A stretch of DNA of 64,000 nt, taken from NCBI GenBank assembly GCA_951406725.2, contig OX597816.1, forward strand, positions 133,238,001 through 133,302,000. Direction: 5' to 3'. Of the stretch, positions 1,096 through 53,928 are shown piece after piece. The first letter of the stretch is position 1; the number at the start of each line of letters is the position of its first letter. Under the pieces are notes generated by a model. The model made no database searches. It had not been told where the DNA came from and saw only the letters and a list, made by a program, of their open reading frames with translations. Position numbers and translations under genes: made by a program. Source of the stretch: Octopus vulgaris (lineage: Eukaryota).

Positions 1096-2511
1096 TCAAG
1101 AGAAGCTAAGTACTGAAAGGATGGTCCCCATGACTACAACAAATACTGTGAGAGTAAATCTTGACACTGCACCGTTCTTTCTATCATATCTTGTTCTCCC
1201 ACTGTATCTCCTGTCCTCATTAACAGGGAAGCCTGAAGTCCCAAATGTAGGAAGAGATTTATCTTCGTTATAGATCCGTCCAATCATTGTTGCTGAATGC
1301 AAGGGATTGTTGAACATACGTTTTGAGTTTATTTTGCCATGTTCATACTGCCACACATCATCAAGAATTTGATCTCCTTTATTCATAAATACCATCTGTG
1401 GATAAATATGATCAGCCGTGAAATTATAACCAGAAAGACCAAATCTTGAAAAGTATGTATCAGCAGAGAAGATATCCTTCCCGCATACTCTATTACAGTT
1501 CATGACTGTGCAGATCTCAAACGACATGCGCCTGTCTAGAGCATTTATAAAGCCCTTGTAGATCCCCAGGCTATATTTCTCCGATTCTAAAGATTCGCCA
1601 GAATAATCTACTTTACAACAGAAAGAACCACTACATATGCTTACATTATCGGTGTATTTTGGCAGATCTATAAATTTAAAACGAATTTCTTCACCGAGTA
1701 TTTTGACACTGTGATACGAGAATTTGCCAAAGGAAACTGATAAATGAGGAATGACTGGTTTCTTTTGTCTTGAATAACGATTCATTTTCACATGGTCAAT
1801 GAGTAAGTGGCCTCTTGTAGAATCAGGTTTGTTATAATAAGAACTTTCACTATATGGGAAGTAAATTCCACTTCCATATGACCCAATGTTTGTGTCATGT
1901 ATAGTAGCAGCTAGTACATTAACCTCATTTCCAATTGCCCAACTAGAGTGCCATTGAACACTACTAAGCAAAGGCGAACTCGATCGCCAAACATTGGGAA
2001 TGATTATGTTCTTCACTTTCCGCTTATTTAATAATTCCGTTATTGGTTCTTTCAACATTGTGTCATAAGAACTCACTACGGCAAATTTGTTCTGAATAGT
2101 CTCGAAAACAGCAATGCTGAATTCATCCGGGCTGTCAAAATATGGTTCATTCAACAAAGCCATTCTACGGTACTTGGCTACGAGATTTCCTTTGTCCGAA
2201 AACACAACCGTACTACTGTAATGGTAATAACTATGGCTAGGGCATTTATGATTTGATCGGCGGTTGCATCTTGCTTTCTCACCTAAGCTAGCCACAATGT
2301 GCATTCTGTTATCTCTTGCTAAACAACTGAGCTTCTTCTGGATAATATAATCTTCTTCATCCAAATCTCTTTCCTCGCACGGGTTCCACTTGGCATGTTC
2401 TACCTCAGGTATTGTTTCTAAGAACGGATGAATAGAGTCATGGCTCTTCATTGTACCAAAGGCAAATACTCCGAACAATCCATATTCAGGAAATACGATT
2501 ACATCAGCTCT
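1096..2511 (-). CDS. Vanin/biotinidase-like protein (nitrilase/CN-hydrolase fold plus vanin C-terminal domain), exon 2 of 2
   Basis: Translation RADVIVFPEYG...WNPC...LSCLARDNRMHIVASLGEK..C......KCP....YHYSSTVVF...GNLVAKYRR...FCCKVDY...EICTVMNC matches the vanin/biotinidase pattern. Acceptor cttttgcag| ends at 2512 in phase 0; stop TGA at 1098-1096. The hydrophobic C-terminus after ...RKNGA resembles a GPI signal. The upstream part of the track ORF (2512-2601) is intronic. Confidence 0.93.
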   Translation of the reverse strand, partial: RADVIVFPEYGLFGVFAFGTMKSHDSIHPFLETIPEVEHAKWNPCEERDLDEEDYIIQKKLSCLARDNRMHIVASLGEKARCNRRSNHKCPSHSYYHYSSTVVFSDKGNLVAKYRRMALLNEPYFDSPDEFSIAVFETIQNKFAVVSSYDTMLKEPITELLNKRKVKNIIIPNVWRSSSPLLSSVQWHSSWAIGNEVNVLAATIHDTNIGSYGSGIYFPYSESSYYNKPDSTRGHLLIDHVKMNRYSRQKKPVIPHLSVSFGKFSYHSVKILGEEIRFKFIDLPKYTDNVSICSGSFCCKVDYSGESLESEKYSLGIYKGFINALDRRMSFEICTVMNCNRVCGKDIFSADTYFSRFGLSGYNFTADHIYPQMVFMNKGDQILDDVWQYEHGKINSKRMFNNPLHSATMIGRIYNEDKSLPTFGTSGFPVNEDRRYSGRTRYDRKNGAVSRFTLTVFVVVMGTILSVLSFS

Positions 2512-10021: not shown

Positions 10022-10513
10022 TTATATTGCATGTATATATGTATATACATGTGTGCATACGTGTGTGTGAGTGTGTGAATGCGTTTGTATGTATGTGTGT
10101 GTATGTCTATATTCCTGCCTCAGTATAGACTTAATAAACATTTGTTAGAACGCAGTATACTTATACTTCACGTTAAGGTTCTTAGGAAGCTCTCAGTAAT
10201 TACAGAGGTACTCGACTCGGAGAAGACACTTCCGAATAGCCCAGACAACTATTATGCATGTATATATATATAGCAATAATAAATCTCTGAGCGAGATATA
10301 AGCAGTAGCAACACGACATCGTGATGCATATTTGCCACCTAAAAGTGGGTGACCGATTAGGGACGATGCTACTGTAGCTTATAGCCCTAGGAAGACATCT
10401 CAGAGATTTATTATTGCTTGTTTCTCCTTTTTCGAGATCAGTGACTTTCCGTCACTGGAAAATGTATATATATTTGCATTGAGAATCACTCCCCATTGCC
10501 AGCCGGTGGTTGT

Positions 10514-10558
10514 CACGTGCTGATGACAGGTCAATACCCAGAAACTCGGGTCCGTGTG
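10514..10558 (+). ncRNA. Type I hammerhead ribozyme motif (family H1, copy 1)
   Basis: cacgtg-CTGATGA-c-aggt caat accc-a-GAAAC-tcgg-GTC|cgtgtg. Stem I is 6 bp with two G.U pairs; stem II has one extra mismatch. Confidence 0.7.
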
Positions 10559-10857
10559 TATCACATCAGGCTAGAGATGGGAACGAGGATTTCCCTTTGT
10601 AAATACTGATAGGGCACAGACAGTGTGTCAATGGGCAGCTGGAAGAGATGTCTTCCTGGAGCTTTAAGCTACAGTAGCATCGTCCGTAATGGATCAGCCA
10701 CTTTTAAGTGGCAAATATACATCACGCTGTCATGCTGCTATTGTTTATATATACCTCAGAGATTTATTATTGCTTGTTTTTCCTTTTTCGAGATCAGTGG
10801 CTTTCCGTCACTGGAAAAAGTATTGAGAATCACTTCTAATCGCCAGCCGGTGGATGT

Positions 10858-10902
10858 CACACGCTGATGACGGGTCAATACTCAGAAACTCGGGTCCGTG
10901 TG
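10858..10902 (+). ncRNA. Type I hammerhead ribozyme motif (family H1, copy 2)
   Basis: cacacg-CTGATGA-c-gggt caat actc-a-GAAAC-tcgg-GTC|cgtgtg. Perfect 6-bp stem I, 4-bp stem II, minimal near-palindromic stem III (ACTCGGGT). Predicted cleavage after 10896. Confidence 0.8.
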
Positions 10903-10969
10903 TATCACGTCTGGATGGTGATGCCTTCCTGGAGCTATAAGCTACAGTAGCATCGTTAGCCCGCTTACT

Positions 10970-11061
10970 TGATCCGGTTCTTGACTGAAGACTGAGGTTT
11001 CGAATGTCCTGTCCGTGTTATTGTATCGTCTTCTAAGAGTTATACGTTCTTGTCCATGTTG
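10970..11061 (+). mobile_element. Short repeat-terminus fragment ending in (TA)n, probably Penelope-type LTR
   Basis: gatccggttcttgactgaagactga..ttcgaatgtcctgtccgtgtt..gtcttc..cgttcttgtcc is also present on the minus strand at about 53600-53723 between (TA)n tracts. Confidence 0.55.
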
Positions 11062-11062
11062 C

Positions 11063-11179
<117 letters not shown>

Positions 11180-15444: not shown

Positions 15445-15515
15445 TATGCTTGTGTGTGCGTGTGTATGTGAGGTGAGGTGACAAAAAGAATAGCAGTAAT
15501 GGCAAGAATACTCAC

Positions 15516-15758
15516 CGACCTCTCGGCTTCCCTAACCATGTTAGCATATATTTCCAAGTTTTGCCGTATCACACGTAATGCTTCGTATCTACTGATGTTT
15601 TGCACACGCGGGGGTTTGATCGGTATGTGCTCGTAAACGGCACCGCTATACGTATCGTACATATTGGCGTTGCGATCGTAGTCCGTATAGGCTGCTACAG
15701 TAGCAAAAAGCAATAGAAGGCTTCCAAACAGCCCCTTATTACCACCGAGTTCGACCAT
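15516..15758 (-). CDS. Vanin/biotinidase-like protein, exon 1 of 2 (signal peptide plus N-terminus)
   Basis: MVELGGNKGLFGSLLLLFATVAAY...YSGAVYEH...SRYEALRVIRQNLEIYANMVREAERS matches the vanin/biotinidase N-terminus (AAVYEH...SR.EAL....NL.IY). 243 nt = 81 codons, followed by donor |gtgagt at 15515. It joins in frame to exon 2, giving 552 aa. Confidence 0.92.
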
Positions 15759-25930: not shown

Positions 25931-26610
<680 letters not shown>

Positions 26611-26611
26611 G

Positions 26612-27037
26612 GATCCGAAACAATGGTGCATACCCTTTTAGCTAAGTAGAAAGGGATATTTATCTTGGTGTGTTTTGGGTGGCATGAACTGAAGAGGAGG
26701 TATTGTTGTGAGTCTGTAGGTTTGTGGTAGATGTCTGTTGTGATTTGGTTGTTGGGTGTTTTTATAATTAGAAGATCAAGGAAAGGGAGATGATGTTTGC
26801 TGAATTCCATAGTGAATTGAATGTTGGGATGTATGTTGTTCAGTTTTGAATTCCAGAAGCTTTTCATAAGATTCTTTCCATATGATGAAACAATCATCTA
26901 AGTATCTTTTCCAGTTTTCCATTAAGTAGATGTGGAAAAGGTGTCCAAATTTCTGGTGTGATATCTCAACAACCAAATCACAACAGACATCTACCTCAAA
27001 CCTACAGACTCACAACAATACCTCCTCTTCAGTTCAT
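26612..27037 (-). mobile_element. Penelope-like element RT fragment with 5' inversion
   Basis: WKRYLDDCFIIW / LNNIHPNIQFTME...LPFLDLLI...TDIYHKPTDSQQYLLFSSCHPKHTKINIPFYLAKRVCTIVSD is a classic PLE RT core and thumb. 26967-27037 is an inverted copy of about 26684-26753. Confidence 0.92.
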
Positions 27038-27173
27038 ATAAATTGCTTATAATTTTTATTCCATGATGACTACCTGAATCAGGTAAAGTTCTATATTTAA
27101 GAGATGAGGAATTATGTACATTACTTACATTATTTACATTTGGCGGATATTTGTCCTCATCTTGTTTGTTGTT

Positions 27174-27219
27174 AACACAACGTTTCGGCTGATATACCCT
27201 CCAGCCTTCATCAGGTGTT
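27174..27219 (-). ncRNA. Minimal type I hammerhead ribozyme motif (family H2) in a PLE-type LTR (about 27090-27264)
   Basis: aacac-CTGATGA-a-ggctg gagggtatat cagcc-GAAAC-GTT|gtgtt. 5-bp stem I, 5-bp stem II, stem III only via the palindrome AACGTT. Confidence 0.8.
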
Positions 27220-27344
27220 TTAGGGAAATTTCGAACCTGGTTCTCATTCCTAAGGTACTTTCGAAGTTGTTGTTGTTGTTGTTGTTGTTGTTGTTATTAT
27301 TATTATTATTATTATTGTTGTTGTTGTTGTTATTGTTGCTGTTG

Positions 27345-33240: not shown

Positions 33241-34150
33241 TTGTTGTTGTTGTTGTTGTTGTTCTTGTTTGCATAAATTAACCAAAAAATAACGAAACCA
33301 CACACGCTAAAAACGATACTATCCAGTAGCCAGCACATCCTGTATGTATGTATGTATGTATGTATGTATGTATGTATGTATGTATGTATGTCTGTCTGTC
33401 TGTATGTATGTATGTATGTATGTATGTATGTATGTATGTATTGAGTGTTTCATTCTGCAAACAATATTATGATATTTGAGCAAGGAGGGCGTATAAGTCT
33501 GTGTAGAGCAGGTAGTCATCAATAAAATGACATATTGAATTGTAGTATAAAAGCATGGCCTGACTTTCAAAGCAATACAATTAGATAAAATCATCCAACC
33601 ACTTGTAATTGCTATTGGCCATCTTGCTAAGACTTGGAACACCACAATGATATTTGGAAGTGATAACAAGCAGGAGCGGATTTAGACCATAGGGCGAGGT
33701 ACACTTCAATTTCGGTGGGCTCCTTATACACAAGAATTAAAATCTTGGAAAATTACCAAATTTAAATCTCAAAACCCATCTGTTTCATATAATTGAACTT
33801 GATGAGTTAGCAGAGAAAGTTTAAATAAATGACGGAAAATGTCGCTTTACAGATACACTTTTCAAAATTCAATTTTTTCTGAAAAATGCAATGAAGGAGA
33901 GAACAGGGGGTAAGACTTTTTTTCTTTTAACGCGAGTTAGAAATGTTTCAGAATGTAGAATACGATAAAATAACAGAAAATTACGAAAAAGACAAAAAAT
34001 CATTTTAGTGATTGTTGCTGTTCCATATGAAATTTGATGTATCCGAAGGTGCATTTTTTGTTGTAGGAAGAGAAAGAATTTGTTCGCTTCCTGCAAAAAC
34101 TAAATATGAACGCTTTGTCAATACAGATTTTACGTTCGAGTAAGTAACTA

Positions 34151-35320
34151 TACGAGGGTGGGCTGAAAGATTCAAAGGCTGACTATGAAGGAGTGATTCT
34201 AGAGCTGTGAAATCTAGCACGCATTCATTTCAACCGTTCTTGTTAATAATTGCATTGTTTCTTTCCAGGTAAACTGACATCTCACTGTTCAAAGAACACA
34301 TCAACAAAGAACAACTAACTTGAAAATCGACAAACTTTCACCTTGTCGTGTTACCGAATACCTGCAGAAAAAGAGTTTAGCCCCCACCCCAGGACATTCA
34401 TACTGACAAGCTTACTACATTAGAGGGATGATGCTCCTGCCTTATCAACAGTGCAAAAGTGGGTAATTGAATTTACGAGGAGAACGGCGAGTATTGAAGA
34501 TGACCCAGCGTCTGGACGCCCTGCAACTGCTACAACCGAGGAAGACAATGATCGCGTTCACCACATGCTGATGGATGACAGACGATTTACTATAAATAAA
34601 ATAACCAATGCTGTTAGCATATCCCATGAGATTGGAATATTCTGCACAATGAACTTGACGAAGGTTTGAGTCACGTTTTCTGACACCTGATCAAAAGCAC
34701 ACCAGGTTGATTACATCACGGCAAAATCTGACATTGTTTGAGGTAGATCCAACTGGTTTCCTTCGACGTTTCCTAACCCAAGCTGAGTGTTGGATTCTTC
34801 ACTTTGAGCCAGAGACACAGAGACAATCTATGCAGCGGAAACACCCTTTCTCACCTGCTCCAAAGAAGGCCAAGGTAGATTCTTCTGTTGGGAAGGTGAT
34901 GGCCTCAGTTTTGGGGGATGCAAAAGGCATTATGTTTATTGACTATTTTCAAATGCAGAGTATTATGCCAACTTACTGATTTACGAATGGCTATCAAGAC
35001 CAAACACCCAGGAAAAGAGTCTTGTTTCATCAGAACAATGCTCCAGCAAACAAGTCCTTCGTTTCAACGGCTGCTGTGATTGACTGAGGGTTTGAACTGG
35101 TTCATGACCATCTCTATTCTCCTGATTTCTGACTATCATCTGTTTCCCAACATAAAAAAAGACTTGACTGGGGAGCAATATTGCAGTGATGATGACGTCA
35201 TATCCACTGTTGATAACTTTTGTGAGCAACAAGATGAAAACTTGTTCACCAATGAGATTCAAGCACTGCAGAACTGATAGAAGAAGTGTGTGAATCGCAA
35301 GGGGGCTATGTTGAAAAGTA
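34151..35320 (+). mobile_element. Decayed mariner transposon
   Basis: Terminus tacgagggtgggctgaaa; remnants VQKWVIEF.R...SIEDDPASGRP, FLRRFLTQAECWILHFEPETQRQSMQ, GKVMASV.GDAKG, HQNNAP, SDYHLFPNIKK. Confidence 0.88.
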
Positions 35321-35839: not shown

Positions 35840-35936
35840 GAGGAGATATAAGTGATGTACTCAAGTGTAGTTATGTTTTTAGCTTGTGCTTTTTCCATGA
35901 TCATACGTGAGTATTTTATTTATATCCCATCGAAAG

Positions 35937-35997
35937 CTCTACTGAAGAAAGAATATATCTTTTATAAGATTAATTCCGAAATTGATTCAATATAGAG
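35937..35997 (+). ncRNA. Type I hammerhead ribozyme motif (family H4, copy 1)
   Basis: ctcta-CTGAAGA-aa-gaat..atctt ttat aagat..attc-c-GAAA-ttga t tcaa-TA|tagag. Perfect 5-bp stem I, bipartite stem II, palindromic stem III ATTGA-T-TCAAT. Predicted cleavage after 35992. Confidence 0.8.
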
Positions 35998-36426
35998 ATA
36001 ACGAAATTTAAATTTTCTAAAGGTTAGTTGCCCGTTTTCAGTTTCAATTCTCCTGTAGCAAGCGGATTATAAGTGGATAAATCAGTGTATTGGCTTTAGA
36101 ATAACCCTCTTTAGCCCTTAATTATATGATGTTTATACTTCAACCGTAACAGTTTTTTAAATATACTGCCCACGCTTCCTGATGGATTCCTTTTCTGTAG
36201 AGAAAGGGACTTCATCCTATATTGTTAGTAGTAAACTCGCTGCTTGCTACGGGAGGACCGGTAACCATTACAATTTGTAGCGGCGAAAGGTCAAGACGTT
36301 GTTTCTGAGGCTGACCAAAGAATTTTTATTTTTAGATATAAGTGATGTACTCAAGTGTAGTTATGTTTTTAGCTTGTGCTTTTTCCATGATCATACGTGA
36401 GTATTTTATTTATATCCCATCGAAAG

Positions 36427-36487
36427 CTCTACTGAAGAAAGAATATATCTTTTATAAGATTAATTCCGAAATTGATTCAATATAGAG
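36427..36487 (+). ncRNA. Type I hammerhead ribozyme motif (family H4, copy 2)
   Basis: Identical to 35937-35997; predicted cleavage after 36482. Confidence 0.8.
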
Positions 36488-36616
36488 ATAACGAAATTTA
36501 AATTTTCTAAAGGTTAGTTGCCCGTTTTCAGTTTCAATTCTCCTGTAGCAAGCGGATTATAAGTGGATAAATCAGTGTATTGGCTTTAGAATAACCCTCT
36601 TTAGCCCTTAATTATA

Positions 36617-53598: not shown

Positions 53599-53928
53599 AT
53601 AAAATACACAAACTGGGACAAGAACGTGAAACATTTCGAAGACGACACAAAAAACACGGACGGGACTTTCGAAGCTCTCAGTCATCAGTCAAGATCCGGA
53701 TCATCTTCGCAATTTCGGCTGATATATATATATATATATATATATTCTTGTTTTGAATATCTGGCGTTTTTGTTATCTTTCATTCCATTATTATTTGTTC
53801 GTTCCCGTCTGGGCTATGAAAGGTCTTTGTATATTTTTGTTGGTCGTAATTATTCATACCAGTATGTAATACCTGACGAAGAATCTAATTTTTATTTCAT
53901 AAAGAGTTTTCCGTTGTGTGTGTGTGTT

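What the first reader, a model, noticed from the sequence alone, without database searches (positions are those of the whole stretch)
10273..10956. Second, unrelated tandem-hammerhead element (344-nt period) inside the vanin-like intron, with an inverted cap
Seen: two hammerheads (10514-10558, 10858-10902) 344 nt apart, preceded by a 128-bp inverted copy of the repeat and followed by a third partial unit. The two stem I differences between copies (cacacg vs cacgtg) both keep pairing as G.U. Both copies share an atypical C.A at the base of stem II. Established: partial-tandem plus inverted pseudo-LTR arrangements are a Penelope hallmark. Inference: an older retrozyme/PLE family distinct from the 36-kb one. 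The ribozymes are antisense to the host pre-mRNA and so would not cut it, but the inverted arms give ~128 bp of intronic dsRNA, a potential ADAR substrate.
Basis: partly seen in the sequence, partly recalled or inferred. Interest (0 to 1): 0.72.

Follow-up and report, generated by a model that had tools for sequence, protein, structure and literature searches.

The report
Worn hammerhead retrozyme, Penelope-type insertion
This is an old, decaying copy of a scattered 356-base non-coding repeat of a known kind (a retrozyme) whose self-cutting RNA motif carries a family-wide C·A mismatch; it was likely pasted into this intron by a Penelope-type enzyme, and no effect on the host gene was found.

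Summary
The motifs are real. The element is one copy of a dispersed 356-nt non-LTR retrozyme lineage (1,517 hammerhead-pattern hits genome-wide, 0 in control). Corrections: the period is 356, not 344 (12-nt deletion); the "third unit" is unit 2 after a 70-nt deletion; the "inverted cap" is a second 3' end carrying a ~46-nt Penelope tail in (TA)n. In 23 of 25 scorable inverted copies only one arm has the tail, as in 9 of 10 inverted pairs of an intact Neptune-type element here. The G·U changes are ordinary decay; copy 1 has also lost a helix II pair. The C·A mismatch is inherited: 912 of 1,517 motifs have Y·A, and six C·A subfamily groups show compensatory stem changes and, in five, different palindromic loop 3s, while the youngest sister has canonical G-C. 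50 of 55 arms read through the cut site, fitting a circular or uncleaved multimeric template. The vanin-like intron, antisense orientation and 130-bp hairpin hold by sequence; no editing evidence was found. The scan noted this architecture before in other families of this genome, and a C·A hammerhead in another genome. Cleavage is untested.

The parts
10261..10271 (.). (TA)n target abutting the left 3' end
   Evidence: AT-like 3' flank in 75 of 113 arms with canonical ends vs 7 of 24 others
10272..10401 (-). Left arm: 5'-truncated sense copy, unit positions 226-355, ending in the family 3' end
10272..10317 (-). ~46-nt Penelope-type tail (unit 310-355), present on one arm only in inverted copies
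10399..10956 (+). Right arm: partial tandem, unit 336-356 + 1-356 + 1-263, with a 12-nt deletion near 10821 and a 70-nt deletion near 10916; expected end (unit 309) is missing
10506..10564 (+). Type I hammerhead, copy 1 (core 10520-10526, C10527·A10540, predicted cut after 10552); G>A at 10528 breaks helix II, likely inactive
   Evidence: hammerhead fold -2.8 kcal/mol vs -11.8 for family majority
10850..10908 (+). Type I hammerhead, copy 2 (core 10864-10870, predicted cut after 10896); helices I-III pair, one G·U in helix II, one lost pair in distal helix I
   Evidence: -7.1 kcal/mol
10645..10774 (+). Part of the right arm complementary to the left arm (130 nt, 87%); predicted hairpin in the host pre-mRNA
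10957..11065 (+). 3' fragment of a different, younger repeat family (~850-nt period) abutting the truncated right arm
   Evidence: 98% identity to the best-scoring other copies; no similarity to the 356-nt unit
11066..11176 (.). (AT)n on the right side
15516..15758 (-). Host vanin-like gene, predicted first coding exon (donor GT at 15515)
1096..2511 (-). Host vanin-like gene, predicted second coding exon (CN_hydrolase + Vanin_C)

Best explanation
This is a decayed copy of a dispersed, non-coding 356-nt retrozyme whose type I hammerhead carries an inherited C·A mismatch, likely copied into a (TA)n run by a Penelope-type reverse transcriptase/endonuclease acting in trans. Shown: dispersed family, two fixed 3' ends about 46 nt apart, (TA)n flanks, head-to-head arms with the tail on one arm only, read-through of the cut site, compensatory stem changes between subfamilies. 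Inferred mechanism: the endonuclease nicks both strands of (TA)n; each nick primes cDNA at one of the two fixed sites on a circular (or uncleaved multimeric) RNA; one cDNA ran 130 nt (left arm), the other about 1.9 turns (right arm); the two joined at a 3-nt overlap (10399-10401). A younger repeat later removed the right end. The master hammerheads would cleave multimeric transcripts, probably as dimers through a palindromic helix III, to give monomers that are circularised. This copy is neutral debris: copy 1 is likely dead, and being antisense neither would cut the host pre-mRNA.
For: Family: 40 scored of 3,525 first-look candidates match at 82-88%; 301 exact hits of a 3' motif. Ends: of 137 arms in 87 loci, 61 end at unit 299-314, 52 at unit 341-3, 24 elsewhere; 38 of 87 loci are head-to-head; of 25 pairs with both ends canonical 23 are short+tail, 2 short+short, 0 tail+tail. 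Same geometry in the young 353-nt sister and in an intact 753-aa RT/GIY-YIG element: 9 of 10 inverted pairs have a 47-51-nt tail on one arm only, the tenth unresolved. One-sided tails and inverted truncated copies are described for Penelope-like elements (PMC3846280; PMC8557442). One of 180 loci (L167) joins a family arm directly to a Penelope RT fragment in the same orientation. No shared upstream body in 58 flanks. 50 of 55 arms pass the cut site. Structure: 90.4% of cells paired vs 86.1% shuffled, 24 vs 9.8 cells changed on both sides, 0/500; subfamily majorities swap A-U/G-C in helix I and G-C/A-U in helix II and have loop 3 = UGCA, CCGG, UCGA.
Against: No DNA similarity between the unit and the one autonomous element examined, in which no hammerhead was found within the stretches read, so the partner enzyme is not identified. 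Two of five covariation measures were not above shuffles (79/500, 408/500), rows are related, and core and loop-2 letters were fixed by my search pattern. G10.1-C11.1 is described as highly conserved (PMC4209133), so C·A may weaken or abolish cleavage. No pile-up of 5' ends at the cut site (5 of 55), so there is no genomic trace of cleavage. 8 of 9 Xenopus retrozyme dimers did not cleave in vitro (bioRxiv 2026.07.22.740005).
Confidence: 0.82

Rival explanations
1. The unit is the pseudo-LTR of an autonomous Penelope-like element, and these are its 5'-truncated solo and tandem ends rather than an independent retrozyme.
For: Identical insertion geometry to an autonomous element; retrozymes are reported to be related to pseudo-LTRs; one junction to RT sequence (L167).
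Against: Arrays of up to five units 353 apart with no ORF; no shared upstream sequence in 58 flanks; the L167 junction falls inside the ORF, not after its stop; no similarity in 50 loci of one autonomous family. Other autonomous families were not surveyed.
Confidence: 0.1
2. The C·A hammerhead is catalytically dead or dispensable; the lineage spread from uncleaved read-through transcripts of tandem copies and the fold is kept for another reason, such as RT binding.
For: Non-canonical 10.1-11.1; 50 of 55 arms read through the cut site with no pile-up; Naiads spread without canonical hammerheads (PMC8557442).
Confidence: 0.25
3. This intronic copy has been kept as a double-stranded RNA/ADAR or regulatory element of the vanin-like gene.
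For: Predicted long hairpin on the host strand (-296.5 kcal/mol, z -12.9).
Against: Such arms are the family default (38 of 87 loci); the arms have drifted to 87% and the copy is 10% from the majority, no better kept than others (median 7%).
Confidence: 0.05

Closest known systems
Metazoan non-LTR retrozymes (Cervera & de la Peña 2020, PMC7229834; mussel ~350-390-bp repeats; axolotl HHR_Amex2)
   Same: Non-coding ~350-nt unit in tandem with one type I hammerhead per unit; two-pair helix III with a tetraloop; a mismatch at the base of helix II is described (U·U in HHR_Amex2).
   Different: Here the mismatch is C·A, in six related subfamily groups; copies are mostly dispersed 1-2-mers with Penelope-type ends. 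Expression as circular RNA and cleavage were not tested here.
EN+ Penelope-like elements, Neptune-type (PMC8557442; PMC3846280)
   Same: 5' truncation, partial tandems, head-to-head inverted arm, tail on one arm, (TA)n targeting.
   Different: No ORF; tail 42-47 nt rather than the 30-40 described; hammerhead is the canonical-size type (helix I 6 bp, helix II 4 bp), not the minimal type with long helix II.
Retrozymes as non-autonomous Penelope derivatives (Li, Clavereau & Pollet, bioRxiv 10.64898/2026.07.22.740005)
   Same: Co-occurrence with Penelope-like elements in one genome; intronic copies are common (42-44% in Xenopus).
   Different: Their link is by co-occurrence and pseudo-LTR homology in vertebrates; here it is by insertion geometry, and no homologous pseudo-LTR was found.

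Membership tests
Type I hammerhead ribozyme | CUGANGA, GAAA and NUH core | tested here: met
   Both copies; majority of 29 other copies
Type I hammerhead ribozyme | Helix I 6 bp, helix II 4 bp, short helix III with palindromic loop | tested here: met
   Family majority and copy 2 pair fully in the core helices; copy 1 lacks one helix II pair; loop UCGG is palindromic only with G·U, sister groups UGCA/CCGG/UCGA are perfect
Type I hammerhead ribozyme | G10.1-C11.1 pair | tested here: not met
   C·A in both copies; 32 of 32 exact family cores have A at 11.1; 912 Y·A vs 487 G-C of 1,517 lineage motifs
Type I hammerhead ribozyme | Covariation of stems | tested here: met
   Between subfamilies, a handful of independent events; three of five measures above shuffles, two not
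Type I hammerhead ribozyme | Self-cleavage | not testable with these tools
   Needs transcription assay
Non-LTR retrozyme | Non-coding tandem unit of 150-450 bp with a type I hammerhead in each unit | tested here: met
   356-nt unit, two hammerheads here; sister arrays up to five units; no shared coding body
Non-LTR retrozyme | Dispersed multi-copy family | tested here: met
Non-LTR retrozyme | Abundant linear and circular monomer RNA | not testable with these tools
   Only assembled contigs of runs guessed to be RNA were available
Penelope-mobilised insertion | Partial tandem plus head-to-head inverted truncated copy | tested here: met
   38 of 87 loci
Penelope-mobilised insertion | Tail on one end only | tested here: met
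   23 of 25 pairs; in this copy the right end is lost, so only the tailed arm is seen
Penelope-mobilised insertion | Microsatellite target | tested here: met
   75 of 113 canonical 3' ends abut AT-like runs
Autonomous Penelope-like element | RT + GIY-YIG ORF attached to the repeat | tested here: not met
   9 of 180 loci hold RT-like fragments; of the 7 inspected only L167 is joined to an arm, mid-ORF

The most novel reading that the evidence does not exclude
A retrozyme lineage kept amplifying through several waves with a C·A mismatch in place of the G10.1-C11.1 pair, relying on dimeric cleavage through a co-evolving palindromic helix III, and only its youngest branch regained G-C by way of U·U: a natural, ordered series of hammerhead tuning variants (C·A to U·U to G-C) in one genome.
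Probability: 0.45. Interest if true: 0.55.

Novelty: new member of a known kind. Interest (0 to 1): 0.33.

Why it matters
The locus itself is ordinary decayed mobile DNA. The lineage is useful: eight related subfamily groups differ at the pair next to the catalytic core and in the loop that allows dimer formation, which gives a ready panel for testing how much hammerhead activity a retrozyme needs, an open point in the Penelope/retrozyme literature. The one-sided tail shared with an intact autonomous element adds genomic support for mobilisation by Penelope machinery, but the scan has already reported that pattern for other families in this genome.

Tried and rejected
Rfam scan: 0 hits. 5'-end pile-up at the cut site: none, 5 of 55 arms at risk end within unit 129-139. 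ADAR edits fixed in family copies: no A>G excess on the ribozyme strand (19.8 vs 29.9 T>C per 1,000 sites in 38 arms; 21.0 vs 33.6 in 52 arms; 4 vs 2 events in 18 young arms); the T>C excess was not followed up. Expression and editing: no RNA holder listed; contigs of runs only guessed to be RNA cover 10652-10897, 10723-10920 and 10679-10860 with 1, 0 and 0 differences, but contigs drop rare variants and may be DNA, so this is no evidence either way. Splicing of the host intron was not confirmed from reads. Autonomous partner by homology: no BLAST hit of either unit in 30 + 20 loci of one Neptune-type family. Relation to the 36-kb element: none. Orientation bias of intronic copies: not testable without annotation. 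G·U pairs as evidence of selection: rejected as neutral transitions. Paper searches for a cephalopod retrozyme or a C·A variant found none; the library is partial and supplements were not opened.

Full report
Observation. Two type I hammerhead motifs lie on the + strand with cores at 10520 and 10864 and predicted cuts after 10552 and 10896. Repeat finding gives a 102-nt direct repeat 344 apart, a 69-nt one 356 apart, and 130-nt inverted arms at 87%. Rfam finds nothing at gathering score. The element sits between two minus-strand coding exons of a vanin-like gene (Vanin_C, CN_hydrolase) with an in-frame GT..AG join at 15515/2512, so the hammerheads are antisense to the predicted pre-mRNA.

The family. 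A search of the 2.8-Gb genome scored 40 of 3,525 candidates, at 82-88% identity to the window copy. Thirty units align to a 356-nt period; copies are a median 7% from the majority and the window unit 10%. A 23-nt motif has 301 exact hits, reversed control 0. Against the majority, the right arm is unit 336-356, 1-356, 1-263 with a 12-nt and a 70-nt deletion: 344 is not the period and there is no third unit. The 36-kb element is unrelated (best E 2.7) and younger (267/267 between its units), against 92% between units and 87% between arms here.

Ends. I mapped 87 loci drawn from the first 100 of the 301 motif hits (90 fetched, 3 overlapping duplicates dropped). Of 137 arms, 61 end near unit 309, 52 near unit 351-356 and 24 elsewhere; 75 of the 113 canonical ends abut AT-like runs. 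38 of 87 loci have head-to-head arms; of 25 with both ends canonical, 23 pair a short end with a tailed end, 2 are short+short, none tail+tail. The window's left arm ends at unit 355 in (TA)n: it is a tailed 3' end, not a cap. Its partner should end near unit 309 but stops at 263 against a fragment of a different, younger family, which probably removed it (inference). An intact 753-aa RT/CxxxxCxxC/GIY-YIG element in this genome (Neptune-type by that linker, which PMC8557442 gives as the mark of Neptune and Nematis) shows the same rule in 9 of 10 inverted pairs, the tenth unresolved. It shares no detectable DNA with the unit, so it shows the machinery exists, not that it is the partner. One of 180 loci joins an arm straight to an RT fragment, as template switching would. 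No shared upstream body was found in 58 flanks. 5' ends are spread; 50 of 55 arms cross the cut site, which excludes a linear cleaved monomer as the usual template and fits a circle or an uncleaved multimer.

The hammerhead. C·A at 10.1/11.1 is inherited, not decay: A at 11.1 in 29 of 29 and 32 of 32 copies. A relaxed pattern finds 1,517 motifs (control 0), 912 with Y·A and 487 with G-C. The G-C class sampled is a young 353-nt sister, 79% identical to this family. Grouped by hand into eight subfamilies (47 rows), six have C·A, one U·U, one G-C; helix I, its distal extension and helix II show compensatory swaps, and loop 3 reads UGCA, CCGG, UCGA or UCGG, the palindromic arrangement described for dimeric cleavage (PMC4209133). 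Pair counts on 18 rows exceed shuffles for percent paired, cells changed on both sides and covariation score (0/500), not for pairs changed (79/500) or pair types (408/500); rows are related and the pattern fixed core letters. In the trees the G-C clade groups with the U·U copies (100/99) inside C·A lineages and has the shortest branches; the root is only a midpoint and three long rows are unsure, so the order is likely, not proven. In the window, the helix I differences are transitions in copy 1, one at a CpG; copy 1 has also lost the first helix II pair (hammerhead fold -2.8 kcal/mol against -7.1 for copy 2 and -11.8 for the majority). Neither copy adopts the hammerhead as its minimum-energy fold.

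Host effect. The host strand is predicted to form a long hairpin, but that is a by-product of a family-wide architecture. No editing evidence was obtained (see Tried and rejected).

What is known, and what I saw. PMC7229834 (passages and section 14): non-LTR retrozymes, 350-390-bp mussel repeats, axolotl U·U variant. PMC8557442 (passages) and PMC3846280 (passages): partial tandems, inverted truncated copy, tail on one end, microsatellite bias. PMC4209133 (first quarter and passages): canonical helix sizes, dimers, conserved G10.1-C11.1. bioRxiv 10.64898/2026.07.22.740005 (parts 1-3 of 5): retrozymes as Penelope derivatives; 1 of 9 dimers cleaved. PMC6962438 (passages): 235 hammerhead hits in giant squid. 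PMC2837043 (passages): compensatory changes at 10.1/11.1 in crickets. Supplements were not seen and could list C·A or cephalopod variants. Earlier scan notes describe the same two-ended architecture in other families of this genome and a C·A hammerhead in another genome; a look-up by this sequence found none. They call the animal a cephalopod; I did not test that.

Verdict. A real but worn member of a known class, with a correctable anatomy and one mildly unusual, testable trait. Interest 0.33.

Noticed in passing
L171, L177-L183, L187-L193, L198, L200 (e.g. G000:C1:180105947-180107390): Young 353-nt sister family with a fully canonical G-C hammerhead and palindromic UCGA loop, arrays up to five units, 97-100% identical; the best candidate for an active retrozyme of this lineage (487 motif hits).
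   Followed up: partly
window 10957-11065 and 53621-53703; L032-L050: Separate young repeat (~850-nt period, partial tandems, ends in (TA)n) with CTGANGA...GAA(A/T) motifs that do not fit a simple type I hammerhead.
   Followed up: partly
window 35844-36612: 490-nt-period element with a long-helix-II type I hammerhead; tandem units 267/267 identical; unrelated to the 356-nt family.
   Followed up: partly
window 26535-27250 (-): Broken Penelope-type RT fragment preceded by a pseudo-LTR hammerhead (near 27200); intact 753-782-aa relatives exist elsewhere in the genome.
   Followed up: partly
L167:1155-2074 (-): Chimera: a 356-family arm joined at unit 71 directly to a Penelope RT coding fragment in the same orientation, not at the ribozyme cut site.
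   Followed up: partly
L072, L074, L077, L078: The internal (AT) run of the unit (positions 46-54) is itself a repeated insertion target, with those 9 bases duplicated around later inserts.
   Followed up: no
window 34148-35320: Decayed mariner-like transposase remnant (judged by eye from translations).
   Followed up: no
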